From a virus (Duplodnaviria > Heunggongvirae > Uroviricota > Caudoviricetes), in IMG/VR virus record IMGVR_UViG_3300037089_000535: a DNA stretch of 64,000 bases. One strand, 5' to 3'. Positions 526-57,968 of the stretch are shown here, one piece after another (within the stretch, counting starts at the first letter, position 1; each line of letters begins with the position of its first letter). Both the position numbers and the translations under genes were made by a program. The notes beneath the pieces are model-generated. The model was not told the origin of the DNA, made no database searches, and saw nothing but the letters and a program-made list of their open reading frames with translations.

Positions 526-1374
526 ATGAAGAGTCACGAATTCGCTTCTGGAGTTTTACAGGGAGCTGATCACCGATACATTAGAACAAATTGTCAAGAT
601 GCAGTTCGTGTATTTAGCCGAACACTCCATGACAAGCTTTGGGGGAACAATACAGTTGTTGTCGGCGTTTGCGCTGACGGTTGCGGAACAGGCGAACACA
701 CAGAAGTTGGGGCGCAGCTTGGTGTTAATATTGCAACAGATGTAATATCAACAGAATATTTATCAGCTGCAAGTTTAGGTAATGAGGTTGATTGGAATAC
801 CATAAAAGACGATATTGTTGCTAGGGTTGGAAATATTGCACAGTCAGTATGGTCTCTTGAACAAGATTACAATGCGCTAATTATCGAGTACTTCTTTTTC
901 ACGATAATTGGTTTCGCAATGACCTCTGAAGAAACCACGTTCTTCCGTGCCGGCGATGGTGTTCTGATTGTCAATGGAGAAGATATCCCAATCAAAACGC
1001 CAGATGGTAACAGGCCAGAATATCTTGGCTACAATCTGTTGAGCAGTTCGATTCGACCTGATATCGAAATACTATTTAAAATTCCAACTGATAAAATTGA
1101 TCACTTCTTACTAGGCTCAGATGGATTGAAAGACATTTGCGCCGCAGAAGAAAAGCTCATCCCTAAGAAACAAGTGGGAACTCGCATCCCGAAGGAAGAA
1201 TTGGTTGGCCCTCTCAGTCAGTTCTGGACCGGGGATCAATACTTCGACGATCCCCAGGCGGTGCGCCGCAGACTGATGATGTTCAATGGTGGCCTTTGTG
1301 CTGATGCCAGGGCCGGCATTGCTCGCGATGACACTTCATTAGTTGTCTGCCGCCGCAGGAATTCAGAGCCATGA
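526..1374 (+). CDS. PP2C-family Ser/Thr phosphatase-like protein
   Basis: PP2C motifs are present: VCADGCGTG..GAQLG (DGxGG), RAGDGVLIV (GDSR-like) and LLGSDGLKD (SDGLwD). The stop overlaps the start of the next gene (ATGA). Confidence 0.5.
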   Translation: MKSHEFASGVLQGADHRYIRTNCQDAVRVFSRTLHDKLWGNNTVVVGVCADGCGTGEHTEVGAQLGVNIATDVISTEYLSAASLGNEVDWNTIKDDIVARVGNIAQSVWSLEQDYNALIIEYFFFTIIGFAMTSEETTFFRAGDGVLIVNGEDIPIKTPDGNRPEYLGYNLLSSSIRPDIEILFKIPTDKIDHFLLGSDGLKDICAAEEKLIPKKQVGTRIPKEELVGPLSQFWTGDQYFDDPQAVRRRLMMFNGGLCADARAGIARDDTSLVVCRRRNSEP

Positions 1375-3251
1375 TCAAAGAGGTCATTGTCGAAGCAGAC
1401 ATAATTAGACTGACGCCAAACTCAGTCAAGGGCGAGGGCGGCGAAGCAATAATCTATGGCTTGCCTGGAAAAAAAGCCCTGAAGATATTCAAGGAACCCG
1501 ATCATCCTGACTTTGCTGGAAAGCCAGAAGCTCAGCAAGCGGCATTGGCGAGAATCAATCAGCACCAAAAGAAGCTTCCCGCCATCCCAAAGAGTTTACC
1601 AAGTAGTGTTATCGTTCCGGATGCGCTTGCATTTACAACCGATCATTCAAAGAAGATAGCCGGTTACCGCATGCCATTCATTAGCGGCACAAACGTTCTG
1701 CTTGAATACGGCGATCAGGAATTCAGAGCTGGCATCTCAAATGATCGTGTTCGAAACGTCTTTGCAAAGATCCACGAGGCATTTGTTGGACTCCATGCGC
1801 ATAGAGTTATCCTTGGTGACGTCAACCCGCTGAACATCTTGGTGTTGGCGAAGTCGGATACGCCGTACATTATCGACATTGATAGTGCATCGATTGATGG
1901 CTTCCCGTCATTCATGTTCACGCAGGCCTATATCGATCCATTGCTGTGCGATCCGAGCCTGAAAGAACCAAAGCTAGTCAAGCATCACACTACCGATTCT
2001 GATTGGTATTCGTTCTGCGTCATGCTCATGCAGTGCATGCTCTTCGTTCATCCGTATGGCGGCATCTATAAGCCAGTTGACAAGACCAAAAAGATTGCGC
2101 ACACGGCAAGATGTCTGCACAAGATAAGCGTGTTCAATCCTGAAGTTGGGTATCCAAAGACAGCGATACATTACAGCGCGCTATCGGATGAATTGTGCCA
2201 CTATCTAATTGGCATCTTCGAGCAGGGAAAGCGTAGTGTCTTTCCGGTGAAGTGTTTAGAGGAAATGCGCTGGACAAAGTGCAACGTATGCGGACAAGAA
2301 TACTCTCGTTCCGCCTGCCCCAACTGCGTGAAGGCTCCGCCAATTGCCGTCATTCAAACCGTGACGGTTAGGAAGAGTGTCACCGTGACGCAGATGTTTA
2401 ATACCACCGGGTCTATCGTATTTGCAACGGTTCAAAGGGGAAGGATGCTCTGGCTCTACCACGAAGCAGATGCGTTCAGGCGCGAAGATCGTACCATCGC
2501 TCTTAAGCATGAGATCGATCCTCGGTTCAAGTACCGAATAAATGGCATCTCAACTGTCATCGGAAGGGATGGGTCCGTTGTCGTTCTCACCCCAAACAAA
2601 ACACCGGTACCGCTCCAGACTGACATCGTTGGTGAACGACCGGCATTCGACGCAAATGCCGACAGCATATTCTGGACAACCAATGATCGGCTGAATAGAA
2701 ACGCGCCATTAGGGCCTGAATATATTGGCGCAGTAATTTCTGGGTTGACACATATCTGGGTTGGTTCAACATTCGGATTTGGATTCTATCGCGCTGGAGA
2801 ATTGAACATAGCCTTCATCTTCAGGACGAATTCAAGAGGCATCAACGATAGTGTAAAGGTACCCAGGATTCGAGGACAACTCATAGATGCAACCTGTTCG
2901 TTTACCGAGAAGCTCTGTTGGTTCTTTACATCCTCCCAAGAGAGTGGACAGACCATCAATCGCTGCGCAGTCATTCAACATGATGGAACTGTCTTGGCTT
3001 CGGCCGAGGCCATTCATGGAGATGGTTCGTGGCTATCGGGAATTCGCGGAGCAACGGCGGCAGGTAATGTCTTGCTTGCTCCAACCGATGATGGTGTAGT
3101 TCAAGTGAAGTGCAACGGAAACCAAATTGTCATCGTAAAGGAATTCCCTGATACAGAACCGTTTGTCAATTCAGGATCAAGACTTTTCGCCGCAGCAGAT
3201 GGGCTTTACGTAGTCGGGCGGCGCGACATTGTAAAACTTAAGATCAGTTGA
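1371..3251 (+). CDS. Hanks-type protein kinase-like protein with C-terminal Zn-ribbon and beta-rich domain
   Basis: Kinase motifs are present: a Gly-rich loop plus Lys (VKGEGGEAIIYGL...ALKIFK), a catalytic-loop-like HAHRVILGDVNPLNILV and IIDIDSA (DFG-like). A CNVCGQEY...CPNC zinc ribbon follows. Translationally coupled to the upstream PP2C gene. Confidence 0.5.
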   Translation: MIKEVIVEADIIRLTPNSVKGEGGEAIIYGLPGKKALKIFKEPDHPDFAGKPEAQQAALARINQHQKKLPAIPKSLPSSVIVPDALAFTTDHSKKIAGYRMPFISGTNVLLEYGDQEFRAGISNDRVRNVFAKIHEAFVGLHAHRVILGDVNPLNILVLAKSDTPYIIDIDSASIDGFPSFMFTQAYIDPLLCDPSLKEPKLVKHHTTDSDWYSFCVMLMQCMLFVHPYGGIYKPVDKTKKIAHTARCLHKISVFNPEVGYPKTAIHYSALSDELCHYLIGIFEQGKRSVFPVKCLEEMRWTKCNVCGQEYSRSACPNCVKAPPIAVIQTVTVRKSVTVTQMFNTTGSIVFATVQRGRMLWLYHEADAFRREDRTIALKHEIDPRFKYRINGISTVIGRDGSVVVLTPNKTPVPLQTDIVGERPAFDANADSIFWTTNDRLNRNAPLGPEYIGAVISGLTHIWVGSTFGFGFYRAGELNIAFIFRTNSRGINDSVKVPRIRGQLIDATCSFTEKLCWFFTSSQESGQTINRCAVIQHDGTVLASAEAIHGDGSWLSGIRGATAAGNVLLAPTDDGVVQVKCNGNQIVIVKEFPDTEPFVNSGSRLFAAADGLYVVGRRDIVKLKIS

Positions 3252-5261: not shown

Positions 5262-6776
5262 ATGAAACTAGCCGGTACACTAAAGTGTGAAATAATCAAG
5301 CCGATTAATTCGGATGGAAAATCAATTTGGAACGAAGTCGGCCCAAGATTAATGGCCTTGAGAAAAACTTTAGCTCCGGCATTGACAATGACGATGCGGG
5401 AATTATATCCGCAAGCGGTTGGTGTCATTTACCTTTTTAAGTCGGGCAATAAGGACGAGGCTCGAACAGCTCAACAACAATGGACCGGCTTAGTTGAGAA
5501 GACATTGCGCAAGCATTGGAATGAAGAACTATTTGGGCGGCTCAATCACCTGAAAAGCAAACTTAAGGAAGAAGATGGAGAGGAACGTCTCAAAACCATT
5601 ACTTCTGCCAACGGTCCAATTCAGGAGTATTTATCTTCCGAGACACGCCACAACATCATATCCCGATGGAAGGGTGAACCATTTAAAGATCTGTTGGTTT
5701 CGAAAGTTTCGGTTCCATCATGGACAACTGGGTGTGCATTCTACGCCAGGAATCGCGAGTGCCCTGTTAGTGGAGACCCCGATAAGGCCCGATTGGGATT
5801 TCCTCTTTTCGGTGGTGGCAACAAACGAACAACACTGGTGGTGGCTCCCTGCGGTGATGGGCATGAAGCACTTTGGAAGAGGTTAGTTGCCGGCGAGATC
5901 AAGCTCGGTCATGTTGGAATTAGTTACAATCTTCGAAAACATAAGTGGTATGCATTAATCTCGTGGTTGGAGGAACGTGAAGAGAATATTTCTGGCTCAC
6001 ATGTTGCTGCGGTCAATATGGGAATCAATGTATTTTTGCAGGCGGTGTCAGATGACGGATCTGAATTCCATGTTGATGGCGGAGATATATTAGCTACCAG
6101 AAGACGATTTTATGGTCGTCGCAAGAGCATTCAGAAGTCTTTGGATAAGATGGGGAGAGGAGCACATGGACATGGGCGCAATCGATTGCTCCGTCCAATT
6201 ACGAATCTTGGCGATTGCGAATCAAGGTACATGTCCAGTAAGTGCAGAACAGTGGCGGCTGAACTCATCAAGTGGTGTGTTAGGCACAACATTGGTCGAT
6301 TGATTTTGGAGGATCTGAGTAGGATAAGGGAGACAGACGAAGCCAAAGATACTCATGAGGAAGTCAAGCGACTAATTCATTCATGGCCTTATGCTGAATT
6401 AACTGCTGCGATTACCAGACAAGGTGCTGAGTTTGGAGTCTCCATCGAAACTCGGGAAGCCTACTATAATAGTCAGCGATGTCCTATTTGCGGACACACC
6501 CATCAGGACAATGTTCGAATCATTGAAGACCGCAGAGACATCATGGTTGATTCCGAGGGAAGGAGATGGGAAAGAAGTTTGAGCAAAAGATCATTCTTCA
6601 CTTGTAAAAAGTGTGACTTCGATGCAAGTGGAGATTTGGTTTCGGCGTCTAATCTACTTCAATCTGTAACAGGATATAGCTCTATTCTCACGACTAAAAA
6701 TAAGGCTAACCACAAGGCCACTAACAAAAGCAAAGCCAAGGGTGATCGGGCTATGGAGTCACCAGGAGAATCATGA
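5262..6776 (+). CDS. TnpB/Cas12-like RuvC-fold protein (compact type V-like effector candidate); RuvC-I Asp apparently replaced by Asn
   Basis: RuvC-I-like AAVNMGINV aligns to the GIDLG motif with N in place of D. RuvC-II RLILEDLS has the Glu. A Zn finger CPICGH...CKKC is present. RuvC-III FDASGDLVSASNL is ADxNAAxNI-like. The Arg/Lys-rich RRRFYGRRKSIQKSL...HGHGRNRLL is typical of TnpB. A GGTGA ribosome-binding site lies upstream. The gene sits immediately upstream of a CRISPR array. Confidence 0.7.
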   Translation: MKLAGTLKCEIIKPINSDGKSIWNEVGPRLMALRKTLAPALTMTMRELYPQAVGVIYLFKSGNKDEARTAQQQWTGLVEKTLRKHWNEELFGRLNHLKSKLKEEDGEERLKTITSANGPIQEYLSSETRHNIISRWKGEPFKDLLVSKVSVPSWTTGCAFYARNRECPVSGDPDKARLGFPLFGGGNKRTTLVVAPCGDGHEALWKRLVAGEIKLGHVGISYNLRKHKWYALISWLEEREENISGSHVAAVNMGINVFLQAVSDDGSEFHVDGGDILATRRRFYGRRKSIQKSLDKMGRGAHGHGRNRLLRPITNLGDCESRYMSSKCRTVAAELIKWCVRHNIGRLILEDLSRIRETDEAKDTHEEVKRLIHSWPYAELTAAITRQGAEFGVSIETREAYYNSQRCPICGHTHQDNVRIIEDRRDIMVDSEGRRWERSLSKRSFFTCKKCDFDASGDLVSASNLLQSVTGYSSILTTKNKANHKATNKSKAKGDRAMESPGES

Positions 6777-7396
6777 CCGAACTAACAAACGAAGAAAAAC
6801 TTAAACTGGAACGACTTCGTGAGCGATGTATTATAATTCAAGGACTCTTGAAGCGATGGCATGAGTCTGCGGTTGAAATTGTGATTGCCCTCAAAGAAGT
6901 TGATGATGAAGGTGATTGGAAGCTGTCCTATCCCAGCTTTGATAATTTTTTGGAGCGTAACTTTCCGAATTCTGGTTTTGGGCTTAAGAGATATCAGCAC
7001 ACACTGCTTTCGATTCAAGAGTATGGTGAGGAGCTGGTTAGAAAGATTGGCCCTGAAGCGGCCCATGTGATGTCGCACCCAAGAATTACCGAGGAGCCAG
7101 CACGAAAGAATGAAATAATTTCGAATGTTAATAACTACATGGAGGCCAATGGTAACGCCCCTAATGCGGATTGGGTGCGCGAACAGCGAAAGAGAATAGC
7201 ACCCGAAACAAATCAGCCACCAAGATCCACTATAGCAATGTCTGCGCTGGGAAGGACCTGCAAAGAGCGTGATGAATGGAGGCGAAAGTTCGAGGAGCTA
7301 CAGGTAAAATACGATAGTGCTGTGAGTGAAATTGAACAACTCCGTAAGCAACTAGGGAAAAATGCGAGCACCTCTACTTCTGATATGGTTTCATAA
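6773..7396 (+). CDS. Hypothetical protein, translationally coupled to Cas12-like gene (possible accessory)
   Basis: ATGA stop/start overlap with the Cas12-like gene. The ORF ends 70 nt before the first CRISPR repeat. No recognisable motif. Confidence 0.4.
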   Translation: MTELTNEEKLKLERLRERCIIIQGLLKRWHESAVEIVIALKEVDDEGDWKLSYPSFDNFLERNFPNSGFGLKRYQHTLLSIQEYGEELVRKIGPEAAHVMSHPRITEEPARKNEIISNVNNYMEANGNAPNADWVREQRKRIAPETNQPPRSTIAMSALGRTCKERDEWRRKFEELQVKYDSAVSEIEQLRKQLGKNASTSTSDMVS

Positions 7397-7465: not shown

Positions 7466-8261
7466 GTATCAGTAACCTTCGAGAGATTCAGTTGATGTGA
7501 GTTGACGAACGTCAGACCTACCGAAGCATTGGCAAAGTATCAGTAACCTTCGAGAGATTCAGTTGATGTGAGATTGAGAGTAGCCGTCGCACACCATCCG
7601 GGGATCTGGTATCAGTAACCTTCGAGAGATTCAGTTGATGTGAGATCAAATGAATGACGACGATGACAACGACGACGAGTATCAGTAACCTTCGAGAGAT
7701 TCAGTTGATGTGAGGCTAAGTCCCAAGGTCACTCTAAATCTTGGAACAAGTATCAGTAACCTTCGAGAGATTCAGTTGATGTGAGCTCCTACAAGCTCCG
7801 GCGACTCCATTGGGGCTGCGATGTATCAGTAACCTTCGAGAGATTCAGTTGATGTGAGTAGTAGTTGTTTCGCCTGTGCAATCCAGCTTTGACAAGTATC
7901 AGTAACCTTCGAGAGATTCAGTTGATGTGAGAATCCGCCGGTAGTGGATCATGCCACGGGGGACACGTATCAGTAACCTTCGAGAGATTCAGTTGATGTG
8001 AGAAAAGAATGGACACATGTATTTGATACGTGTTCTGGTATCAGTAACCTTCGAGAGATTCAGTTGATGTGAGAGCGAAATCGACCCACCCCCCTCCAGA
8101 CGTATCAGTAACCTTCGAGAGATTCAGTTGATGTGAGGTGTTAGAGTGCCCACATTGTCATGATGCTGATGACGTATCAGTAACCTTCGATAGATTCAGT
8201 TGATGTGAGAAGATGGACGCGAATGGTATCAGTAACCTTCGAGAGATTCAGTTGATGTGAG
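7466..8261 (+). CRISPR. CRISPR array: 12 repeats of 36 nt (GTATCAGTAACCTTCGAGAGATTCAGTTGATGTGAG), 11 spacers of 16-37 nt
   Basis: Exact repeats start at 7466, 7537, 7609, 7679, 7750, 7823, 7896, 7967, 8038, 8102, 8174 and 8226. Repeat 11 carries a G->T substitution (cgaTagatt). Spacer 9 is 28 nt and spacer 11 is 16 nt. Confidence 0.93.
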
Positions 8262-8367
8262 ATACATGGAACTGACTGTCGCCAATGTGCGCGCCATGCG
8301 TCACCACAGTTTCCGCAAAGCGGAAACCAAATCATTCCTGGCGGTGATTTGTTTGAGTCCAAATGCA

Positions 8368-10317
8368 CTACTTCAATTGGCTTAGTTCGCTGACGAAGCC
8401 ACCAGACAAAACAGGGAACCTGCACCACGTCTTAGGATCAAGATTATGGTTGTCTACGTGGAACGCTATAGCGTAGCGCTCTCTTTTCCATTGATTGCGC
8501 ACCCACATTGTAAAGAACTTCCTTACATACGAAATTGCCAATGGGTTGTCGGGCCTTTCGCGACGCAGACAATTGAGCACCTCTTGTGGTCCCTTCTTCT
8601 CCAGGATGGCCCACGTTTCAATGGCATCGAGAATATCGTAAGGCATCAGATCATCCTCGTCTGTCTGGCCTTGTCCTGGGCGTAACTCAGCCGTTGGCTT
8701 CTGACTCACGATACCCTTCAGTGATGGATAATCCGTGACCATCGTGTTCAACCATTCGAGCAAGAACGCCTTGTCGATGCCGCCGATAGGGGCAATGGAT
8801 CCTGCGGTGTCTCCATCCATCGTGCAATAACCAACGGCAGCCTCTGAGCGGTTGCTGGTAGTGATTAGAAGCTTGCCCTCTAGGTTAGCTACCATCCAAA
8901 TGCTTGGGGCTCGTGCACGGGCCTGGATATTCTGCAACGCAATATCATCATGCTCCCAGGTCAGAGCGCGGCCCTCAACTTGTTCTGCTAGGGCTATGTA
9001 TTGTTTAACGATGGCATCGATATCGATCACAGAGAATTTGGCACCAATCTCATTAGCCACGGCCCTAGCCGCTTCAAGAGTTGTTGTTGAGCTGTTCGAT
9101 GTGGACTGATACACGCAGGTAAGAAGCTTCTCAACAAGCACTCTTCGACCATGAATCAGGTATTGTTTAATTAAATCTTCATCTATTGGAATGTTGAATT
9201 GATTGAGAGCATCTTCAATGCCTTGAGATTCATTAATAACACGCCTAATCATCAGAGATACCAGCGAGGCACATGCGGCCGAATCAGCGCCTCCGCTAAG
9301 AGAAACCACAAACCCTTTTGAATGTGACTTCTCCAAATAATCAAACAGCCCCAATGTAATTGCGAGGGTAAACTCTTGATGCTTAGTGAATGATTCGCTC
9401 TGTATTGGCTTGGTTGCTTTTTCATCACAGGCAATATTTTTTATTTCATTAACAAGACCTTGAGTATAATCAACTACGCCGCCAGCTTCTAAATCTGGAG
9501 AGAAGCTAGCTGTGGCAATCGCTCTGGTTTTGATTAATGAAAGATCAATGACGGCTGTTGTTAAATTTACCTTGGCCATATTTAGGAATGGGCCGCGAGC
9601 TAGTAAATCGCCGCCGCTTGCGACAATACAATCGCCATCATAAATGGCACGACCCGCTTCATTACCAAGAAGATTTGCATAAATGTAGGCTACATTAAAT
9701 GCCCGCGAGCCCTCAACAACAAGTCTCTCTCTAGTAACTCGTTTTCCGAAAGCAAAGTGAGATGCCGATGGATTCAAAATAATGTTGACGCCTCTTCGCG
9801 CTAAAGCGTTACCCGGCCGCTCTGCAACGAAAGCGTCTTCGCAAATCTCAAAGCCTATATGTACGCCATCGATATAGAAAACCAAATCCCCAATCACATA
9901 ACCAGGACCCTCTATAACCAATTTGGCTGGCCATGGCTTGAACCATCGTGGTTCGTAATGAAGGCCGTCACCCGCTAGGTGTTGCTTGGGAACGATGCCT
10001 ATGATTTTCTCATCATAAACACAGACCATTACGTTGTACAAGCAGTTGCACCACAGAAATGGTATGCCAAAACAAGTAAAGATTCCGCTTGTTTGTGGTA
10101 GTAGATCGCATACTATTTCCCAAGCTGTAGTTATAACTTGCTCTGATAGGAAGTGATCTTCGCAACCATATCCGGTGATTGCCATTTCGGGCAAACAAAG
10201 AACTTTCACGCCAGCTCTTCTGGCTTCACCTAGAGCGTCGATGATGTTATGCTTGTTGCGCTCCCAATCGAGAGGCGTTTGATTCAAGGTCGCCGCACCA
10301 ACTTTGAGGTTTGACAT
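8368..10317 (-). CDS. nadE: Glutamine-dependent NAD+ synthetase (N-terminal CN-hydrolase domain + NAD synthase domain)
   Basis: An N-terminal nitrilase-like domain (LCLPEMAITGYGCED) is followed by the PP-loop SLSGGADSAACASL. 649 aa. Several short opposite-strand ORFs inside it are judged spurious. Confidence 0.85.
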   Translation of the reverse strand: MSNLKVGAATLNQTPLDWERNKHNIIDALGEARRAGVKVLCLPEMAITGYGCEDHFLSEQVITTAWEIVCDLLPQTSGIFTCFGIPFLWCNCLYNVMVCVYDEKIIGIVPKQHLAGDGLHYEPRWFKPWPAKLVIEGPGYVIGDLVFYIDGVHIGFEICEDAFVAERPGNALARRGVNIILNPSASHFAFGKRVTRERLVVEGSRAFNVAYIYANLLGNEAGRAIYDGDCIVASGGDLLARGPFLNMAKVNLTTAVIDLSLIKTRAIATASFSPDLEAGGVVDYTQGLVNEIKNIACDEKATKPIQSESFTKHQEFTLAITLGLFDYLEKSHSKGFVVSLSGGADSAACASLVSLMIRRVINESQGIEDALNQFNIPIDEDLIKQYLIHGRRVLVEKLLTCVYQSTSNSSTTTLEAARAVANEIGAKFSVIDIDAIVKQYIALAEQVEGRALTWEHDDIALQNIQARARAPSIWMVANLEGKLLITTSNRSEAAVGYCTMDGDTAGSIAPIGGIDKAFLLEWLNTMVTDYPSLKGIVSQKPTAELRPGQGQTDEDDLMPYDILDAIETWAILEKKGPQEVLNCLRRERPDNPLAISYVRKFFTMWVRNQWKRERYAIAFHVDNHNLDPKTWCRFPVLSGGFVSELSQLK

Positions 10318-10479
10318 TTTCTATTTTCTCAGGTGATATTGATTTACAATAATAAAACGCAATAGGGCGTGGGCATATTGGCAAGTCATCTAGCTGCAAG
10401 TCCAGCAGCTCTTCTTGAATCTGTAGCTGGAATTTTAGTTCCGCAGCAGGTAGAGCTTCGTCATCGTCCACAGCCAACC

Positions 10480-11973
10480 TCATAGCGAGATGTTAAAGTT
10501 CGCTTGGCGATTCGCTTTGCAGATGTCAACCAATGCTTGTGTAGCTGGCGAATACTGCGGTGGGATGTTGAGTCCCAGAGCTGCCGCTTTGAAGTTTGGT
10601 TCGTAATTTGTAAGACAGTTGCCCGCGTTTAGGCGATAGTAATTCGGAATGACCTCGCCCTCTTGCCCGATGATCCCAACTGGAACCTCCGGACTGATGT
10701 GCATGGGATGCGGGCGATAGACAACTGGGAGCCCCGGCACAGATTGTTTGCCGCTCTCGGCCTCATCTCCGAATTTCATAGTGGCTACGCTACCGCTCTT
10801 CGACAGCTTCCAGACGCCAGCCACATCATCGCGCCTGAATGTTTTCCACGTAGGCTCTACCAAATATCCGCCGTAGCCATATGACTGACGATCAGGCGAC
10901 CACTCCATTGTCTCGCGATACTTCTCGAACCGAATCGTCTTCTCTAGATTCCACCCGCTCTCCAAGATGAGTTGCGGCAACAGACCAAGGCGCAAGCATT
11001 CTGTTATGGTATAGAAGTAGTGGTTCTTGATTCGTTCTTCTGAGTCGAAACGAATGCCAGCGTTTCGATCAGGACGCTCTTGAATTGCGAGCAGTGCCGC
11101 CGGGATTCCAGATCGAATTGAATCAAACGTATCTGGTAAGTATGAAATGAAACCCGGGAATCGATCGCGCATTGTGATGAATGAATGGTAGTCACTGCCA
11201 AAGCGTTGAATGTGCTCGTGCCCCATCGTGCCTACCGGAATCATTCCAAGCTCTTTGGCTAGGTAGACATTCGATGTGCGCAGGATACCGGCCTCTTTGA
11301 TAGCGCTGAGGGCAATTTTGTGTTGTGCCATGCACGACACGGCACGCATTCCAACCTCAAAGATGCGATCAGGATTACCGCCAACAGCTTCCACCAAGGC
11401 TTTGGCTTTGGCCAAGATGCTTTGATAGTACTCGTCGGTTCGCACTTCAACCTCTGGTATTTTGCTACCGGCAAACAGACAAGCATTGAGAATGAGTTCT
11501 TTCTCTTCTTCGCATGTAGCGAACATCTTGTCTGGCAAGGCTCGAACCTTGGCCTGAGTTGCGACTTGAATAGTGAAGTTGAGCATGAGTGCTGTTGGCT
11601 CTAGCCAGCTTGAAACAGCCGATGGGCCAGTAACGGAGAAGGCCGGCTCTCGGCTATAGAACCAAGAACCCTCGGGAATGGACGATACCTTTACCGTATC
11701 GACCATTGAGAATGCTTTGCGATACGCCGCGCCAACTGCATAGGAGTTGGCTTCGAGGTATGAATAATCTTCGGCAAGCTCTTTCATTGGCTGGTGTGCA
11801 TCCGGAAGAAGGCCTTTGACGTACTTCGCTGCATCTATCGGCAGGAAATGCCAGCCGTAATGCCCGCCGCGCCGATGGGTGTAGTAAAATGTTTCCGTCC
11901 TTAACGGAAAGCCAGCTTCGGCCATCGAGAATTTGTACCCATCTGTCATTGTTATTCTCACATCAACTCGCAT
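10480..11973 (-). CDS. Nicotinate phosphoribosyltransferase-family protein (PncB-like; NAMPT not excluded)
   Basis: TDGYKFSM N-terminal motif and IPVGTMGHEHIQRF (cf. NAPRT GTMAHS). The first 6-8 codons of the tracked ORF fall inside a CRISPR-repeat relic. A more plausible start is Met9 (ATG at 11949-11947) with a GTGAGA SD-like sequence 7 nt upstream. Confidence 0.65.
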   Translation of the reverse strand: MRVDVRITMTDGYKFSMAEAGFPLRTETFYYTHRRGGHYGWHFLPIDAAKYVKGLLPDAHQPMKELAEDYSYLEANSYAVGAAYRKAFSMVDTVKVSSIPEGSWFYSREPAFSVTGPSAVSSWLEPTALMLNFTIQVATQAKVRALPDKMFATCEEEKELILNACLFAGSKIPEVEVRTDEYYQSILAKAKALVEAVGGNPDRIFEVGMRAVSCMAQHKIALSAIKEAGILRTSNVYLAKELGMIPVGTMGHEHIQRFGSDYHSFITMRDRFPGFISYLPDTFDSIRSGIPAALLAIQERPDRNAGIRFDSEERIKNHYFYTITECLRLGLLPQLILESGWNLEKTIRFEKYRETMEWSPDRQSYGYGGYLVEPTWKTFRRDDVAGVWKLSKSGSVATMKFGDEAESGKQSVPGLPVVYRPHPMHISPEVPVGIIGQEGEVIPNYYRLNAGNCLTNYEPNFKAAALGLNIPPQYSPATQALVDICKANRQANFNISL

Positions 11974-11992
11974 CTCTCGAAGGTTACTGCTT
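11957..11992 (-). repeat. Degenerate inverted copy of the CRISPR repeat (~29/36 nt)
   Basis: ctcacatcaactCGCatctctcgaaggttactgCTTTAC compared with the reverse complement of the repeat, CTCACATCAACTGAATCTCTCGAAGGTTACTGATAC. Confidence 0.7.
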
Positions 11993-12050
11993 TACAGCAA
12001 GCTCTGGATCTGTGCAATTGCAAAGTGTCTTTAGTCAGCTATTAAAGTCA

Positions 12051-12080
12051 AATGGCCCACTGATAAATCAGTGGGCCATT
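12051..12080. other. Perfect 13-bp-stem hairpin (AATGGCCCACTGA-TAAA-TCAGTGGGCCATT)
   Basis: Exact inverted repeat with a 4-nt loop, immediately 5' of a repeat-like copy. No clear U-tract on either strand. Confidence 0.6.
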
Positions 12081-12082
12081 CT

Positions 12083-12120
12083 TCAGTAACCTTCGAGAGA
12101 TCAGTCATTCAACGAGTGAG
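12083..12120 (+). repeat. Degenerate direct-orientation copy of the CRISPR repeat
   Basis: tcagtaaccttcgagaga-tcagtcattcaacgagtgag compared with TCAGTAACCTTCGAGAGATTCAGTTGATGTGAG. Confidence 0.55.
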
Positions 12121-12332
12121 CTTGATCCTCAATTGAGGACTCCTCGCGTTTAGGCCATGTGATTGGCCTGCAAGTAAACCTTACTATAAGATACAAAAAA
12201 GTCAAGTAGTCTTTGCGAAATACTTACACCTACCCACATCAACGCAACTATACCAGCTGAGAGACTATCGTTGATTGTGTACAGCAAGCCCACGCTTCAT
12301 ATCGATCGCGATCATCGTCGTTCCTCCTTACT

Positions 12333-12369
12333 CTCACATCAACTGAAATCTCTCGAAGGTTACTGATAC
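12333..12369 (-). repeat. Near-perfect inverted copy of the CRISPR repeat (one extra A); candidate anti-repeat or solitary repeat unit
   Basis: ctcacatcaactgaAatctctcgaaggttactgatac equals the reverse complement of the repeat plus a 1-nt insertion. It lies 110 nt upstream of the 12479 ORF. Confidence 0.8.
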
Positions 12370-12478
12370 GTACTACGCATCCTTGAGCGGTTCGCATGTA
12401 GTGCCTGGCCCATGTGACTGTCCGGGATATTTGGCCGAACCGGCCGAGTTTGCCTTGGAAGACTTGGAAGAGAAATAG

Positions 12479-15926: not shown

Positions 15927-18344
15927 TTATTTCGTTGCTACCCTAACTCCATCTAATGTTATTGAGGTTGCTCCTGTAATAACAATCGTATGGGTTGCTG
16001 GTGCCGGTGTTGGTACCGGGGCGGGTGGAGTTGGAACTGGCACCGGCGCTGGAGGCGGCGTTGGGGTTGGGGCTGGTGGTGCAGGCGTAGGCGTAACCGT
16101 TTGCAACGCTGCCAACAACTTGGTCCCAACTGGGACACCAACACCAGTACAGGCATCCCAACCTACACGAGCGGCATAGGTTCCGTTGTTGCCGGTGATA
16201 ATATCTCTATACCATCCTGTCAATGAATAGAGTGCTGAGTTTAGATAGCCAACATTCTTTCCAAGGGCCTGTGTTAAACAGGCCGCTAAAGCCGCCCATA
16301 GAGGCGCTACTGCACTCGTTCCACCGATAACATAGTTCTGACCATCGACAATAACATTCCAACCGCTATTTGGATCTGCATTACCGGCAACGTCAGGAAC
16401 GCCACGATACTTTCCGCCAGGAACATTTGCTTTTGCTTGATAGGTTGGAATGGCAAACAGGGAACTAACGCCACCGCCAGTTGCCTCTCCTCCTCCATCA
16501 TTCCATACAACTTCAGTTGTCGTGTTCAAAGCAGGAAGGCTGGTACCTCCACAGGCCAGAACAAGTGGCGATGATGATGGAAAGTCAACGTGGTTTCCAG
16601 ATTCGCCATCACCTGAACCTCCGTCGCCGGCTGCCACTGTTACAGTAATCCCGGCAGTAGCTGCACGCTGGAATGCGGTATTGAAATTGGCAATCGATGT
16701 AGAACTCCATTGATCTTCAGGTGAGTTGCCACACCATGAAACCATGCCCTTTCTACGAACAAACATGATATGGTTGGGCACTGTCAAACAGTATACAAAG
16801 TCATCATAATCAGCTTCATAGCGCTTAGTGAGGCGTTCTGTTTTGTATGTCTCTTTGATATTTACTCGATATTCTATATGTCTGGTTATACCCTTTGCGT
16901 TTTTCCTGCCTCGACGATCAATTGTTTTGATAGACCCAACAAAGCCGAGTTTCAAAAGCAACTCTTGTACACCATCTGCAAGCATCTTTGAAGATGTATA
17001 GTACGCCTGCTTGCCTTTTCCATTCCGAGTCCCATCTCCCAACATAAGAGCATCATATAATATTCTTAATTGTTGTGGGCAGGCCGATAAAATATGAGGT
17101 GGAATAAATTTTTCCCATGACTTACCAAACTTAGCTAGCCCCAAACACAATTCACGATTGCAACAACTCCATCCGTGTCCATTACGGTTGAATTTGAATG
17201 GCATTTTATCAAGACAACGTTGAATCTGCGCAACCTTTTCTGGATTTGAAATTTGTGATATTCCGGTCGAATATGTTTGCTCATCAAATGCCTTGGCTTG
17301 ATATTCTGTTTGTATTATTTCTATTGGTGTATCCTTATGGCGTTTTGCAAAAGTGCCATCGTGCATTCGCTCTATTCTTTGGTTTAGGAATCGTGGTCGT
17401 TTTTTGACAAAGGTGCGTTCTTTATGGTGTGTAACTCCAATACTGGTGTGTCCTTCGGATAGAAAGTAGCCCATGAATTCAAGGTAAAGATCTGCATTAA
17501 TATTTTTACCACCTAAAGTTACCGTCTTTAGCTCCTCACCATTCCATAACGCCGTCTTAGGCACATAACACCAATTATTAGAGAAAATCTCTTCTGATGG
17601 ATATAAATCAGCTTGATGCTTCGCACGTTTCACATACATCATATGATTAGGTGTAACCATCAAATCGGTGCAACTCCCTTGGTAATGGTGCATTTTACCT
17701 TTGTAATGATACTTGTGAGTTTTTTGAATAGGTTGATATTCTAATTCTCCTGTACTGGGATTTAATGTAGCAATCAGCTCATCTCCGTTAATATTCTGGA
17801 AATAACGCCATCCTGTATTTGTTAACACTTCGGTCTCGTTGTCATAACAACCCCAAGAGATACTGATTGCGGTCATATCATCAGTAATAGCCTGGTTGAT
17901 TGCGTCCAAGAAGCCAGCGTCTGTATTTGGGGCCATGTAGCAGTGAAGCTCTGCACCAGGGGCCATTGCACCAATGATACATAGGTCGAGCATTACTTCG
18001 CCATCAGCTCCATTAGGATCGCCGGGAGCGTTCTTTGCCCCATCGATGCCATGAAATACTACTGGCTTTACTGTTAGTCCAAGGGAAGTAAAATACTTAT
18101 TTAGATCTGCTTGAACGTAGCCACCTCCCAATTCAATAACTGCAACTTTGGTTCCAACTCCTGTTGCGTTCGTTGGGAAGCCATAAAATGTGGCCAATTG
18201 CTTTGGGTTATAGCTAACGCTTGTAGCGCGAGATCCGGCGAATGGTCTATGTCCAATCTGTGGAGGAATTGGTGGGCGTCTATTACCTGTGGTGGGTAAT
18301 GCTGCTGCGCCTTTAAATCTCCTGATATATGATATTAGTTGCAT
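15927..18344 (-). CDS. Sedolisin/subtilase-like (S53/S8) serine peptidase interrupted by an intein; C-terminal Pro/Thr-rich linker plus small domain
   Basis: Extein motifs ISISWG|SPEDQW (SxSWGxxE), AAGDGGSGDG and GGTSAVAPLWAAL (catalytic Ser). The insertion begins with Cys right after SWG and ends ..WCGN before Ser. The C-terminus is PTPAPPAPTPTPPPAPVPVPTPPAPVPTPAP. Confidence 0.75.
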   Translation of the reverse strand: MQLISYIRRFKGAAALPTTGNRRPPIPPQIGHRPFAGSRATSVSYNPKQLATFYGFPTNATGVGTKVAVIELGGGYVQADLNKYFTSLGLTVKPVVFHGIDGAKNAPGDPNGADGEVMLDLCIIGAMAPGAELHCYMAPNTDAGFLDAINQAITDDMTAISISWGCYDNETEVLTNTGWRYFQNINGDELIATLNPSTGELEYQPIQKTHKYHYKGKMHHYQGSCTDLMVTPNHMMYVKRAKHQADLYPSEEIFSNNWCYVPKTALWNGEELKTVTLGGKNINADLYLEFMGYFLSEGHTSIGVTHHKERTFVKKRPRFLNQRIERMHDGTFAKRHKDTPIEIIQTEYQAKAFDEQTYSTGISQISNPEKVAQIQRCLDKMPFKFNRNGHGWSCCNRELCLGLAKFGKSWEKFIPPHILSACPQQLRILYDALMLGDGTRNGKGKQAYYTSSKMLADGVQELLLKLGFVGSIKTIDRRGRKNAKGITRHIEYRVNIKETYKTERLTKRYEADYDDFVYCLTVPNHIMFVRRKGMVSWCGNSPEDQWSSTSIANFNTAFQRAATAGITVTVAAGDGGSGDGESGNHVDFPSSSPLVLACGGTSLPALNTTTEVVWNDGGGEATGGGVSSLFAIPTYQAKANVPGGKYRGVPDVAGNADPNSGWNVIVDGQNYVIGGTSAVAPLWAALAACLTQALGKNVGYLNSALYSLTGWYRDIITGNNGTYAARVGWDACTGVGVPVGTKLLAALQTVTPTPAPPAPTPTPPPAPVPVPTPPAPVPTPAPATHTIVITGATSITLDGVRVATK
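16725..17849 (-). mobile_element. Intein (~375 aa) with LAGLIDADG homing-endonuclease domain inside the peptidase gene
   Basis: Begins with Cys (CYDNETEVL) after SWG and ends GN before Ser. Internal LEFMGYFLSEGHTS and LYDALMLGDGTRNG are LAGLIDADG-like blocks. Removing it restores the sedolisin SWGSPE motif. Confidence 0.65.
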
Positions 18345-18385: not shown

Positions 18386-18419
18386 AGTTATGAGCAGATC
18401 TATTTATATCAAAGGAAGT
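18386..18419 (-). promoter_or_regulatory. T4-like late promoter element (TATAAATA box), copy 1, upstream of the peptidase/intein gene
   Basis: The ~34-nt sequence aaattatgagcagatctatttatatcaaaggaag recurs at 19146-19179. On the minus strand it reads ..cctttgaTATAAATAgatctgctcat.. about 45 nt before the ATG. Confidence 0.5.
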
Positions 18420-19120
18420 ATAATTATACAGTGTGGTTTGGGGGTACGGCTTAGATTGTAAAACGTATTAGCAAACTTACTTAGCCGATCTATACGCAAA
18501 GCAAATCTACTACCTGAGATGTTACTAACATGATCTTTCATATTGAAAGCAACCGCATCTCTCTTAGCCTTTTCCGATATATACATTCCGGCCTGTCTCT
18601 CTTGCGGAGTTAGATCGGTATATTGCGGAACTGAAAAGAATTGAGCCGGGTCTTGTATTTGGTTATCTTTCCACACCTGTAAATGACAATGCGGCCATGT
18701 CTTACTAGCATTGCCTGTATTACCAACGGTTCCAAGCGCCGTATTACCATCTACCCTCTGTCCTATTTGAACATTAGCTGTTGCCAAATGAGCATAGTAA
18801 CTCTTAAATCCATTAGCATGCTGAACATTAACGACATTTCCACCCAATGGATCGGTGCCAACGTTAGTGACAGTACCTGGTGCTATGGGGTATAGTTGCG
18901 TTCCACTTTGAGCACGAAGGTCAACTCCCTTGTGCTTGCCACTAAACCCTCCAGAATTATACCAGGTGCCTTTGATTGGAGATTGAAATGCAGAGTTTCC
19001 TGAGGCTGGTAAATGTTGAGAAGCCGGCGCTTGACTCTTAATTGTAGGCTCAAGAAGACCAATCATATCAGAGTCAATCTGATTCTGTAGGTTCTGCGGA
19101 TTGTCATTTGGAAACTGCAT
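18404..19120 (-). CDS. M23-family (lysostaphin-like) metallopeptidase
   Basis: HKGVDLRA (HxxxD), VNVQHANGFKSYYAHL and PHCHLQVW (HxH). Confidence 0.75.
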   Translation of the reverse strand: MQFPNDNPQNLQNQIDSDMIGLLEPTIKSQAPASQHLPASGNSAFQSPIKGTWYNSGGFSGKHKGVDLRAQSGTQLYPIAPGTVTNVGTDPLGGNVVNVQHANGFKSYYAHLATANVQIGQRVDGNTALGTVGNTGNASKTWPHCHLQVWKDNQIQDPAQFFSVPQYTDLTPQERQAGMYISEKAKRDAVAFNMKDHVSNISGSRFALRIDRLSKFANTFYNLSRTPKPHCIIILPLI

Positions 19121-19145: not shown

Positions 19146-19179
19146 AAATTATGAGCAGATCTATTTATATCAAAGGAAG
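19146..19179 (-). promoter_or_regulatory. T4-like late promoter element (TATAAATA box), copy 2, upstream of the M23 peptidase gene
   Basis: Same 34-nt element as at 18386-18419. The TATAAATA box sits ~35 nt upstream of the minus-strand ATG at 19120. Confidence 0.5.
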
Positions 19180-19661
19180 CTTAATTTGATTGTTTTCGTG
19201 TCTAGATGAGCACGTACTTTTGATTTTCTTAATATCATCTTCAAGAGATGAAATTCTCTCAGATAGTTTTTCAAACAGCTTTACTATCCATGGCGGTGGT
19301 TCTTCAGATACCAATTGCGATTCAATACGTTGTACTGCACCAACCATGTGTTGGTTTTTCTGAGTCCATTTATTTCCTTAAGATCAAAAGAAACTATACA
19401 CTTGAGATACAAAGTTATCCCATGCTAATTAACACATAATTATGAACATAAACTAATATTTTGTACGGCCACCCGGCTTGTTTCTTTGTACGAGCTAGGC
19501 TCCATCTGTAGTTATATATCCTTGCAAATTGCGAATTAGATTCGCAAAAAGCTTGACCCTGGACGTTCGATGAGTACCATGCGTCAGGACCAGGGATGAG
19601 GCTTTGGTTACCTTGGTGACTCTTCATCCAAGGTAGGAACTGAAGGACGTAGGAGGCCACA

Positions 19662-19964
19662 TTGGATACGTATACATTATTTGTAATAAGCAGTTTTGAT
19701 CTTACTAAATTTGGTTGTCCTCATTGTGGATCTATAAATGGTAGTGTCTTATTAATCAATGGAACTTGCTTCATATGGAACTGTGATGATTGCGCCGAAG
19801 AATGTGCAGTTGTTGGAAAATCAGTTGATAAAATGTCTCAGTTTGTAATTAGAAACACTGATATCAAAGACCTTATTGGCCAACATCCTTACCAAGAAGA
19901 TTACAAAATAAACACTTTCGCTCTTAGGGTTAACAATATTCCACTTAACGGAGTTGTTCAATAA
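19662..19964 (+). CDS. Small Cys-rich (Zn-ribbon-like) hypothetical protein; stop codon lies inside mini-array repeat
   Basis: CPHCGS...CFIWNCDDCAEEC. Its TAA stop is part of the degenerate first repeat of the mini-array. Confidence 0.3.
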   Translation: MDTYTLFVISSFDLTKFGCPHCGSINGSVLLINGTCFIWNCDDCAEECAVVGKSVDKMSQFVIRNTDIKDLIGQHPYQEDYKINTFALRVNNIPLNGVVQ

Positions 19965-20062
19965 CCTTCGAGAGATTCAGTTGATGTGAGGTGTTAGAGT
20001 GCCCACATTGTCATGATGCTGATGACGTATCAGTAACCTTCGAGAGATTCAGTTGATGTGAG
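19955..20062 (+). CRISPR. Mini CRISPR array: degenerate repeat, 36-nt spacer identical to main-array spacer 10, then a perfect repeat
   Basis: R1' is 19955-19990 with a divergent 5' part. The spacer at 19991-20026 is gtgttagagtgcccacattgtcatgatgctgatgac, identical to 8138-8173. R2 at 20027-20062 is an exact copy of the repeat. Confidence 0.8.
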
Positions 20063-20113
20063 TGCAAGAAACCATTCAAAGCCAAGGCGGTGGCAAGAAG
20101 TAAAAAATTGGTT

Positions 20114-20148
20114 GAGGGGCGGAAATAAACCGCCCCTCGATTTGTTTG
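20114..20148 (+). terminator. Rho-independent terminator
   Basis: Stem GAGGGGCGG-aaataaa-CCGCCCCTC followed by gatttgtttg. Confidence 0.7.
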
Positions 20149-57411: not shown

Positions 57412-57537
57412 CTTCACAGAGGGTTGGTCCCTCGCCTACTACATAAGTTGGAAAACATCAGCTTTATGCCTCGCGTCCCGAAACGGATGCACTTTTGTGA
57501 AGCTTACACGCCGTGGTTCGAATCCACAAAGCGGCTC
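57412..57537 (+). ncRNA. Structured RNA repeat unit U1 (hairpins A, C and a T-arm-like hairpin D)
   Basis: gaggg-ttggt-ccctc; gcgtcc-cgaaac-ggatgc; CTTACAC box; cgtgg-TTCGAAT-ccaca. Homologous to U2-U4 with compensatory stem changes. Confidence 0.6.
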
Positions 57538-57690
57538 TAAAACTATCAAACAACAGCGCTTACACGCTCATAACGTACGTTCAGGGCTGATTCAAGTACC
57601 TGAACAACCCAAAAGCACTGTTACTCGATAGGTTTAATTTTCAATGGAAATGCTTCCATTGTGTGTTGAAAATATTGTGTGTTGAAAATG

Positions 57691-57792: not shown

Positions 57793-57828
57793 GAGAAGAA
57801 ATTCTCATCATGCGGGAATATAGAGGCT

Positions 57829-57945: not shown

Positions 57946-57968
57946 AGCAGTCAATCAGAAGTGCATAC

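What the first reader, a model, noticed from the sequence alone, without database searches (positions are those of the whole stretch)
19662..20148. Satellite mini-array duplicating spacer 10, fused to a small Zn-ribbon ORF and followed by a strong terminator
Twelve kilobases from the main array there is a degenerate repeat, then a 36-nt spacer identical to main-array spacer 10, then a perfect repeat. The stop codon of a 100-aa Cys-rich ORF lies inside the first repeat, and a GC-rich terminator follows.

The duplicated repeat-spacer-repeat unit could be a separately regulated guide, perhaps a differently timed single crRNA. It could equally be a recombination product or a decoy.
Basis: seen in the sequence. 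Interest (0 to 1): 0.7.

Follow-up and report, generated by a model that had tools for sequence, protein, structure and literature searches.

The report
Stray CRISPR unit replacing phage gene
One repeat-spacer-repeat unit of a large phage's own CRISPR array was pasted by an untidy DNA-repair event into the place of a conserved gene 12 kb away, where it is probably still transcribed as an extra guide RNA; it is a real recombination scar, not a new kind of system.

Summary
Window 19955-20062 holds a 5'-degenerate repeat, a 36-nt spacer identical to main-array spacer 10 (8138-8173) and a perfect repeat. The stop codon of a conserved 100-aa Zn-ribbon gene lies in the first repeat, and a 13-bp-stem terminator follows. 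Five independent contigs span both junctions, so it is not an assembly artefact.

Related large phages all carry Zn-ribbon gene, then a ~330-aa coiled-coil gene, then DUF7873. Here about 1.1-1.2 kb, including nearly all of the coiled-coil gene, is replaced by 113 nt. Homology resumes at the last bases of the perfect repeat, with the gene's final 13 codons and its terminator.

The insert is a patchwork. Fifteen nt are the reverse complement of 7331-7345, next to the main array; then come repeat 10 (3' 29 nt), spacer 10 and a repeat. Each join has a short microhomology. The best reading is microhomology-mediated template-switch repair.

The unit now lies between a conserved sigma70-like promoter and a terminator, so an extra crRNA-10 is plausible but untested. 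No protospacer for spacer 10 was found. Spacer 7 perfectly matches another phage's head gene.

The Cas12f-like effector has Asn in place of the RuvC-I Asp.

The parts
19553..19580 (+). Sigma70-like promoter TTGACC-16 nt-TACCAT of the Zn-ribbon operon. It is preceded by the palindrome TTGCGAATTAGATTCGCAA (19529-19547).
   Evidence: 9 of 12 consensus positions. The same TTGACC-16-TACGAT sits at the same place in relative L015. Homology to relatives starts at 19507. Function is inferred.
19662..19964 (+). Conserved Zn-ribbon gene, 100 aa, TTG start. The last four codons (GVVQ) and the stop codon were created by the junction.
   Evidence: The family motif is [FYW]GCP[HYS]CG. In relatives the ORF ends ...PLS*/...PIG* at the point where the window reads ...PLN-GVVQ*.
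19948..19962 (+). 15-nt filler ACGGAGTTGTTCAAT, an exact reverse complement of window 7331-7345.
   Evidence: blastn-short E 0.001; the next best hit is 11 nt; a second exact 15-mer is expected 1e-4 times by chance.
19955..19990 (+). First repeat, degenerate at its 5' end. Canonical repeat positions 8-36 run from 19962.
19991..20026 (+). Spacer identical to main-array spacer 10.
   Evidence: 0 mismatches, family D3.
20027..20062 (+). Perfect repeat. Its last two bases (AG) are shared with the resumed homology to relatives.
20061..20103 (+). Remnant of the deleted ~330-aa coiled-coil gene: the last 13 codons, VQETIQSQGGGKK, plus the stop.
   Evidence: 90% identity to L016 1874-1933; identical C-terminal peptide. 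(80% to L024, 76% to L026)..
20110..20142 (+). Intrinsic terminator of the ancestral operon, now closing the Zn-ribbon plus mini-array transcript.
   Evidence: 13 pairs, 8 GC, T-rich tail; the alignment to relatives runs into it.
8102..8209 (+). Donor unit in the main array: repeat 10, spacer 10, repeat 11. Repeat 11 carries a G-to-T change that the copy lacks.
7331..7345 (-). Donor of the 15-nt filler. It lies inside the 3' end of the accessory ORF, 121 nt upstream of repeat 1.
7466..8261 (+). Main CRISPR array: 12 repeats and 11 spacers. Spacer 9 is 28 nt here, and spacer 11 is only 16 nt.
5262..6776 (+). Cas12f-like effector (504 aa) that would use the guides. The RuvC-I Asp is replaced by Asn252.
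   Evidence: (Cas12u3 3e-40, Cas12f 2e-38).
6773..7396 (+). Conserved ~200-aa gene of unknown function that always follows this effector.
11950..12372 (.). Region with three more repeat-related pieces: 11957-11989 (-), 12083-12101 (+) and 12333-12369 (-). It is the likely tracrRNA locus.
   Evidence: The strand and ends of a tracrRNA are not resolved.

Best explanation
The satellite is an ectopic copy of one unit of the phage's own CRISPR array. It was captured during microhomology-mediated, multi-template repair of a break or collapsed fork in the operon 'Zn-ribbon gene, then ~330-aa coiled-coil gene'.

Inferred path of the repairing strand:
1. It left the end of the Zn-ribbon gene at ...CTTAAC.
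2. It copied 13-15 nt from the opposite strand of the accessory ORF just upstream of the main array (microhomology CTTA-C).
3. It switched at TCAAT/TCAGT into repeat 10 and copied the repeat's 3' 29 nt, spacer 10 and a repeat.
4. It rejoined the operon 39 nt before the stop codon of the coiled-coil gene (microhomology AG).

About 1.1-1.2 kb was lost, including nearly the whole conserved gene.

The patch inherited the operon's promoter and terminator, so it should be transcribed on the + strand as the 3' part of the Zn-ribbon mRNA. The repeat portion 5' of the spacer and the region that pairs with candidate anti-repeats are intact. The transcript can therefore probably be matured into a second, differently driven source of crRNA-10 for the phage's Cas12f-like effector.

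Shown: the duplication, the gene replacement, the breakpoints, the filler's donor, and the promoter and terminator motifs. Inferred: the repair mechanism, transcription, processing and any benefit.
For: Duplication:
- 105 nt at 98% identity; the spacer matches 36/36.

Real and stable:
- Identical in five independent contigs that span both junctions.

Gene replacement:
- Relatives L015-L017, L023-L027 and L031 all carry Zn-ribbon ORF, then a 330-332-aa coiled-coil gene, then (o58) DUF7873.
- Window homology runs 19507-19947 and resumes at 20061/20062, with the last 13 codons and the terminator.
- The coiled-coil protein has no tblastn hit in the window.
- It forms a conserved family of 36 clusters with E < 1e-60, on contigs up to 463 kb.

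Patchwork:
- The exact 15-mer at 19948-19962 is the reverse complement of 7331-7345, 121 nt from repeat 1.
- The microhomologies can be read directly.

Expression context:
- Promoter conserved in L015; terminator.

Pairing kept:
- Duplex energies of the candidate anti-repeats with the degenerate repeat are -35 to -51 kcal/mol, against -40 to -62 for the canonical repeat.

System in use:
- Spacer 7 has a 35/35 protospacer in the Mu-F-like head gene of an unrelated phage.

Precedent:
- Standalone mini-arrays are thought to arise by duplication of array units because repeats are recombinogenic (10.1101/2023.03.03.530964, Discussion).
Against: - No transcript or small-RNA data exist.
- The closest relative that keeps the ancestral state is only about 74% identical in DNA. 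A multi-step history cannot be excluded, for example an older array or a solitary repeat at this site.
- The filler match rests on 15 nt.
- Repeat 11 of the main array has a T that the copy lacks. Either the copy predates that mutation or the history is more complex.
- Array orientation and the tracrRNA are unresolved.
- The single known protospacer shows no T-rich PAM on either side.
- No target of spacer 10 was found anywhere.
- The effector lacks the RuvC-I Asp. Even a mature crRNA-10 may therefore guide binding rather than cutting.
- All carriers are near-identical strains, so conservation says nothing about selection.
Confidence: 0.7

Rival explanations
1. Neutral scar. The unit is only debris from a repair event. 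It is either not processed or adds nothing beyond the main-array copy, and it persists because the event is recent.
For: The origin is clearly accidental: patchwork junctions and loss of a conserved gene. All carriers are nearly identical strains. The same guide already exists in the main array. Solitary repeats and mini-arrays are often judged spurious.
Against: The unit lies inside a transcription unit with a conserved promoter and a strong terminator. It keeps every part that a 5'-handle crRNA needs. If the effector and tracrRNA are present, some crRNA output is hard to avoid.
Confidence: 0.35
2. Adaptive, separately timed guide. The mini-array was retained because the Zn-ribbon promoter delivers crRNA-10 earlier or at a higher level than the main array.
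For: The unit has its own sigma70-like promoter with an upstream palindrome, conserved in a 74%-identical relative. The main array has a different, conserved leader with the motif CTCGCAAA. The unit is intact and identical in all strains.
Against: There is no evidence of selection, no known target for spacer 10 and no expression data. The price was the loss of a gene conserved across the whole phage group.
Confidence: 0.3
3. Assembly artefact: a collapsed or chimeric repeat.
For: The two loci share 82 nt exactly, which is longer than many k-mers. One short contig, L013, joins leader, repeat 1, spacers 1-10 and a repeat directly to the mini-array's right flank. Other contigs break inside the unit.
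Against: Both unique junctions, Zn-ORF to filler to repeat and repeat to remnant, recur unchanged in five independent contigs from different samples and assemblers. The main array is separately flanked by its own unique sequence on the same long contigs. Collapse cannot create the 15-nt filler.
Confidence: 0.03
4. Regulatory crRNA-like RNA or decoy. The unit would tune a phage or host gene by partial complementarity, or titrate a Cas protein, as in crlRNA or Racr elements.
For: The phage has further solitary repeat-like pieces at gene starts (11957-11989 lies 7 nt from the NAMPT start codon). Such roles are documented elsewhere.
Against: The spacer is a full-length exact copy of an ordinary spacer. 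Its best other match in the window is 22/36. The guides downstream of the other repeat copies have no significant partial matches. The repeats belong to the phage's own system, so a decoy would work against itself.
Confidence: 0.05
5. Structural role as a recombination substrate. The 105-nt direct repeats bracket 11.8 kb that includes NAD+ salvage genes, an intein-bearing gene, an M23 peptidase and the Zn-ribbon gene. They would allow that block to be looped out.
For: Contig L013 has exactly the predicted deletion joint. It also carries its own repeat variant, GAGAAATT, found in neither parental repeat of the window.
Against: L013 is 2.5 kb from a fragmented assembly. A wrong path through the shared 82 nt explains it equally well. 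No coverage data are available.
Confidence: 0.15

Closest known systems
Standalone mini-arrays formed by duplication of a CRISPR array unit (Shmakov et al. 2023, 10.1101/2023.03.03.530964)
   Same: Two repeats and one spacer, one repeat degenerate, lying away from the main array. They are proposed to arise because repeats are recombinogenic.
   Different: Here the spacer is an exact copy of a normal spacer, with no partial self-target. The degenerate repeat is the upstream one. The junctions show the mechanism: a three-template patch that replaced a gene. The unit lies 12 kb from the cas gene, in an unrelated operon.
Virus-borne mini-CRISPR arrays used in inter-virus conflict (SPV1/SPV2, Medvedeva et al. 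2019, PMC6858448; review PMC11656645)
   Same: A one-spacer array in a viral genome. The parent array of this phage does target another phage (spacer 7).
   Different: Those mini-arrays borrow the host's Cas proteins and repeats. This one matches the phage's own array and its own Cas12f-like effector. Its spacer duplicates one already present, and no target virus was found for it.
Phage-encoded CRISPR-Cas systems without adaptation genes, as in large and huge phages (summarised in PMC11656645)
   Same: A compact effector plus a small static array in a large phage. The array is identical across samples apart from a 7-nt deletion in spacer 9.
   Different: The effector is Cas12f-like with Asn at the RuvC-I Asp position and has a conserved ~200-aa partner gene.
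Microhomology-mediated template switching (MMBIR/FoSTeS-type repair; established knowledge)
   Same: A deletion whose joint contains short templated insertions copied from nearby sequences, one of them inverted, with 2-5 nt microhomologies at each switch.
   Different: This mechanism is known mainly from cellular genomes. Here one captured template happens to be a functional CRISPR unit in a phage.

Membership tests
CRISPR (mini-)array | Two or more direct repeats identical to those of a cas-associated array, separated by a spacer of normal length | tested here: met
   29/29 canonical nt plus a 36-nt spacer plus a 36/36 repeat.
CRISPR (mini-)array | Cognate effector encoded in the same genome | tested here: met
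   The Cas12f-like gene at 5262-6776 is on the same contigs.
CRISPR (mini-)array | Transcribed and processed into a crRNA | not testable with these tools
   Only promoter and terminator motifs and the retained anti-repeat pairing are available.
CRISPR (mini-)array | The spacer matches a protospacer in a target | tested here: inconclusive
   There was no match in IMG/VR, GTDB genomes, INPHARED, one metagenome collection, a 5.8-billion-protein set (as peptides) or any fetched locus. The metagenome collection lacks even this phage's own repeat.
Virus-borne mini-arrays for inter-virus conflict | Repeats identical to the host's CRISPR system | not tested
   The host is unknown. The repeats match the phage's own array.
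Virus-borne mini-arrays for inter-virus conflict | The spacer targets a related or competing virus | tested here: inconclusive
   Spacer 10 has no target. It is absent from the allelic locus of nine relatives. Spacer 7 of the parent array does target another phage.
Regulatory mini-arrays / crRNA-like RNAs | A spacer with partial, seed-type complementarity to a promoter in the same genome | tested here: not met
   The best non-array match of spacer 10 in the window is 22/36. Only 64 kb of the genome could be tested.
RNA anti-CRISPR (solitary repeat units) | A solitary repeat that mimics the host's repeat and has no functional spacer | tested here: not met
   The unit has two repeats and a full spacer, and the repeats match the phage's own system.
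Type V-F (Cas12f) system | Effector matches Cas12f profiles and solved Cas12f structures | tested here: met
   (Cas12u3 3e-40; Cas12f 2e-38). (AsCas12f 3e-19, Un1Cas12f 3e-13).
Type V-F (Cas12f) system | Intact RuvC D-E-D catalytic triad | tested here: not met
   Asn252 aligns with AsCas12f Asp225. Glu350 and Asp458 are kept. The position is Asn or His in 17 of 18 clade members.
Type V-F (Cas12f) system | A tracrRNA with an anti-repeat | tested here: inconclusive
   Three anti-repeat candidates lie at 11957-12369. Structured RNAs are predicted on both strands (z -4.3 and -4.95). None can be assigned.

The most novel reading that the evidence does not exclude
The patch could act as a self-immunising homing cassette.

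The perfect repeat now abuts the retained 3' end of the deleted coiled-coil gene. In a system with a 5' repeat handle, the terminal repeat would therefore yield a second guide. Its 36 nt match the intact gene of related phages (33/36 in L016, 28/36 in L031). The carrier's own copy would be shielded, because the repeat occupies the PAM side.

The flanking homology (Zn-ribbon gene on the left; terminator and DUF7873 on the right) could then copy the mini-array into a co-infecting relative after targeting. That would be a natural, Cas1/Cas2-independent way of making a guide and spreading it.
Probability: 0.05. Interest if true: 0.85.

Novelty: new member of a known kind. Interest (0 to 1): 0.4.

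Why it matters
It is a clear natural example of how a stand-alone mini-array is born. The donor, the breakpoints, the microhomologies and the gene that was lost are all visible. This turns the general idea that repeats are recombinogenic into a specific, checkable mechanism.

It also shows that phages with no adaptation genes can still move guides into new expression contexts.

The duplicated 82-105 nt is a practical hazard for assembly and a possible substrate for an 11.8-kb deletion.

The surrounding system may be worth more attention than the satellite itself. It consists of a Cas12f-like protein without the RuvC-I Asp, a conserved unknown partner gene, and a static array aimed at another phage.

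Tried and rejected
1. Spacer 10 derives from a homologue of the adjacent Zn-ribbon gene. Both encode CPHC. Rejected: all 26 family representatives and 6 syntenic homologues have [FYW]GCP[HYS]CG, none has ECPHCHD, and the best DNA match is 20/36.

2. Spacer 10 targets the sequence it replaced in relatives (homing via spacer 10). There is no match at or below 11 mismatches in nine allelic loci.

3. Protospacer searches for spacer 10 all came back empty:
- exact and wobble-degenerate patterns in IMG/VR, a JGI metagenome set and GTDB genomes;
- blastn against INPHARED;
- the two open-frame peptides against 5.8 billion proteins.
The metagenome set proved uninformative, because the phage's own repeat is absent from it.

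4. The 22-nt spacer-7 seed hit in a Bacteroidota MAG (L036) is only 27/35 overall in 34% GC DNA and is unrelated to L035. It was treated as chance, not as a host clue.

5. Self-regulatory guides. The 40 nt downstream of each extra repeat copy have no significant partial matches in the window.

6. Rfam found only two tRNAs, with no known CRISPR-DR or tracrRNA family.

7. Strand assignment of the tracrRNA from fold z-scores failed. Both strands of 11950-12200 fold well, while 12195-12372 (+) does not.

8. No T-rich PAM lies next to the one known protospacer, whichever way the array is read.

9. It could not be determined whether the JGI 78-kb contig (L004) carries the mini-array, or whether the coiled-coil gene survives elsewhere in the genome outside the window.

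Full report
**1. What is there**

The window carries a CRISPR array at 7466-8261 on the + strand. It has twelve 36-nt repeats (GTATCAGTAACCTTCGAGAGATTCAGTTGATGTGAG) and eleven spacers. Repeat 11 has one change, and spacer 11 is only 16 nt.

The array follows a 504-aa Cas12f-like gene at 5262-6776 (PADLOC Cas12u3 3e-40, Cas12f 2e-38; the closest solved structures are AsCas12f and Un1Cas12f). A 207-aa ORF (6773-7396) lies between them. No adaptation genes were seen.

11.7 kb downstream, at 19955-20062, are a repeat with four mismatches confined to its first eight bases, a 36-nt spacer identical to spacer 10, and a perfect repeat. Positions 19958-20062 are 98% identical to 8105-8209.

The 100-aa ORF 19662-19964 ends with the TAA that forms repeat positions 8-10. 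A 13-bp-stem terminator lies at 20110-20142.

**2. It is real**

The source is a peat or permafrost metagenome phage. The same Zn-ORF, mini-array and right-flank arrangement occurs unchanged in five contigs from different samples and assemblers:
- scaffold_117 (108 kb)
- k141_131710
- scaffold_5318
- k141_252771 (one SNP, in the ORF)
- k141_195273

The main array sits in its own unique flanks on the same long contigs. Short contigs break inside the unit, as expected for a true repeat.

One 2.5-kb contig (L013) runs leader, repeat 1, spacers 1-10, a repeat, and then the right flank of the mini-array. Its repeat carries a private variant. It is either a wrong path through the 82 nt the two loci share exactly, or a real 11.8-kb deletion between the direct repeats. 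I could not decide between these.

**3. What the locus was before**

The Zn-ribbon ORF is a genuine conserved gene. Homologues are 44-73% identical, and 26 representatives share [FYW]GCP[HYS]CG...CxxC.

In every relative with context (L015-17, L023-27, L031, from phage contigs of up to about 390 kb), it is followed by a 330-332-aa coiled-coil gene and then DUF7873. That coiled-coil gene belongs to a family of 36 clusters on contigs up to 463 kb.

In the window, homology to relatives covers the promoter region and the ORF (19507-19947). It resumes at 20061/20062, the last bases of the perfect repeat, with the final 13 codons of the coiled-coil gene (VQETIQSQGGGKK*, identical to L016) and the terminator. 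Identity there is 90% to L016 and 76-80% to L024 and L026.

So 1.1-1.2 kb was replaced by 113 nt. The coiled-coil protein has no tblastn hit elsewhere in the window. The rest of the genome could not be checked.

**4. How the patch was made**

The 113 nt are not all array sequence. Bases 19948-19962 (ACGGAGTTGTTCAAT) are an exact reverse complement of 7331-7345, in the 3' end of the 207-aa ORF and 121 nt upstream of repeat 1. The blastn-short E-value is 0.001, the next best hit is 11 nt, and chance expectation is 1e-4.

Read from left to right, the joints show:
- CTTA(A)C in the Zn-ORF against GCTTAC in the donor;
- TCAAT against TCAGT, where the filler meets repeat positions 4-8;
- AG, where the repeat meets the gene remnant.

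Two templates within 900 nt of each other, one of them inverted, joined by 2-5-nt microhomologies, and a deletion at the recipient: this is the signature of template-switch repair. That part is inference from established knowledge of such repair. The cause of the initial break is unknown.

The native stop codon of the Zn-ORF was lost. Four new codons and the repeat's TAA now end it, so the 'fusion' is incidental.

**5. What it probably does now**

The patch lies between TTGACC-16-TACCAT (19553-19580) and the ancestral terminator. The promoter motif is conserved at the same place in L015 and is preceded by a palindrome.

If the array is read on the + strand, a type V crRNA needs only the 3' part of the upstream repeat plus the spacer. 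Three things favour that strand: the array is co-directional with the effector, relatives share a conserved leader motif, and the degenerate units lie at the far end. All 29 nt of the upstream repeat's 3' part are present.

Candidate anti-repeats at 11957-11989 (+), 12083-12101 (read on -) and 12333-12369 (+) pair with the degenerate repeat almost as well as with the canonical one: -35 to -51 against -40 to -62 kcal/mol.

I therefore expect an extra, differently driven source of crRNA-10 (probability about 0.5). Whether this is useful is unknown.

The parent array is in use in at least one sense. Spacer 7 matches 35/35 the Mu-F-like head-morphogenesis gene of an unrelated 58% GC phage in IMG/VR.

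No target of spacer 10 was found in any collection or in the allelic loci of relatives. The CPHC coincidence with the neighbouring gene is chance.

**6. Caveats on mechanism**

- The tracrRNA cannot be assigned. Both strands of 11950-12200 fold far better than shuffles (z -4.3 and -4.95), and the relative L021 has its anti-repeat on the array strand just upstream of a three-repeat mini-array.
- The spacer-7 protospacer has no T-rich flank.
- The effector has Asn252 where AsCas12f has the catalytic Asp225. Glu350 and Asp458 are kept. The position is Asn or His in 17 of 18 clade members, and two of them also lack the Glu. The system may therefore bind rather than cut. Nuclease-dead Cas12f clusters next to arrays have been mentioned in PMC13472631.

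**7. Comparison and verdict**

This is a mini-array of the kind thought to arise by duplication of array units, located in a virus like the mini-arrays of inter-virus conflict.

It differs from these in four ways:
- it uses the phage's own system;
- it duplicates an existing guide;
- it has replaced a conserved gene;
- it shows its mechanism of origin.

It fails the tests for a regulatory crRNA-like RNA or an RNA anti-CRISPR.

It is a new member of a known kind and of moderate interest.

The most novel reading still open is that the terminal repeat, fused to the gene remnant, makes a guide against relatives that keep the gene. With the flanking homology this would be a homing cassette. It has only the trivial support of homology (33/36 to L016), and the flank there does not resemble the one known protospacer flank. 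I put it at about 5%.

Noticed in passing
window 5262-6776: The Cas12f-like effector has Asn252 at the position of the RuvC-I catalytic Asp (AsCas12f D225). Glu350 and Asp458 are kept. The position is Asn or His in 17 of 18 clade members, and two members also lack the RuvC-II Glu. This may be a binding-only or attenuated Cas12f clade carried by phages.
   Followed up: partly
window 6773-7396; L020 11736-12422; L021 11503-12087; L034 11613-12254: A conserved ~195-230-aa gene always follows this effector. It is 33-39% identical across the four loci and has a globular N-terminal part and a leucine-zipper-like C-terminus. It matches no Pfam, PHROG or PADLOC family. It is a possible partner protein.
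   Followed up: partly
window 7932-7966; L035 2691-2725: Main-array spacer 7 has a perfect 35/35 protospacer in the Phage_Mu_F-like gene of an unrelated 58% GC phage (IMGVR_UViG_3300046505_000054). The flanks are ...CTGGGAT on the 5' side and AGCTTTG... on the 3' side, so there is no T-rich PAM.
   Followed up: yes
window 11950-12372: Three more repeat-related pieces are present:
- 11957-11989 (-), 31/33, ending 7 nt before the ATG of the NAMPT-like gene;
- 12083-12101 (+), 19/19;
- 12333-12369 (-), 36/37.

Positions 11972-11989 and 12084-12101 can form an 18-bp stem around a terminator-like hairpin (12055-12078). This is the likely tracrRNA locus, but the strand is unresolved.
   Followed up: partly
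window 8226-11989: The NAD+ salvage pair, NadE-like (8368-10317, -) and NAMPT-like (10480-11973, -; phrog_448), is bracketed by the last array repeat (+) and an inverted repeat-like copy (-). The cassette looks as if it was inserted or inverted between the array and the tracrRNA region.
   Followed up: no
L013 1-900 (ERZ28654907 scaffold_38382): This contig joins leader, repeat 1, spacers 1-10 and a repeat directly to the mini-array's right flank. The repeat has a private variant, GAGAAATT. It is either a chimeric assembly path or a real 11.8-kb deletion between the duplicated units.
   Followed up: partly
window 8074-8101 vs L003 12813-12847: Spacer 9 is 28 nt in the window, L004 and L005, but 35 nt in scaffold_117 and L013, a 7-nt deletion. 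Otherwise the array is identical in all samples, as expected without adaptation genes.
   Followed up: yes
L021 9717-9998: A 42%-identical effector in a high-GC phage has only a three-repeat mini-array directly upstream of its start codon. The third repeat is degenerate and overlaps the ribosome-binding region. An anti-repeat lies about 70 nt further upstream on the same strand.
   Followed up: partly
window 12102-12136 vs 2968-2979 and 3166-3181: The sequence just after the half repeat has a 12-nt exact match and a 15/16 inverted match to two spots 200 nt apart in the kinase gene. Each has E about 0.09. This may be another templated patch or may be chance.
   Followed up: no
window 15927-18344: An 805-aa gene carries a LAGLIDADG/intein-like insert. 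The otherwise identical JGI contig L004 encodes a 756-aa version.
   Followed up: no
window 18388-18425 and 19149-19186: A 38-nt direct repeat (95% identical) lies on either side of the M23 peptidase gene and just upstream of minus-strand gene starts. It may be a phage promoter or regulatory motif (family D4).
   Followed up: no
window 57400-58620: Two tRNA genes (57970-58041 and 58394-58464) lie in a ~424-nt tandemly duplicated unit.
   Followed up: no
window 526-3251: A PP2C phosphatase gene and a Ser/Thr kinase-like gene lie upstream of the effector. The kinase has weak matches to PD-T4-6-type defence kinases.
   Followed up: no
L024 5760-6000 and L026 5740-6000: In two relatives the spacer between the Zn-ribbon gene and the coiled-coil gene contains a tRNA T-arm-like GGTTCGAATCC motif. 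In L031 the DUF7873 gene is interrupted by a ~750-nt insertion.
   Followed up: no
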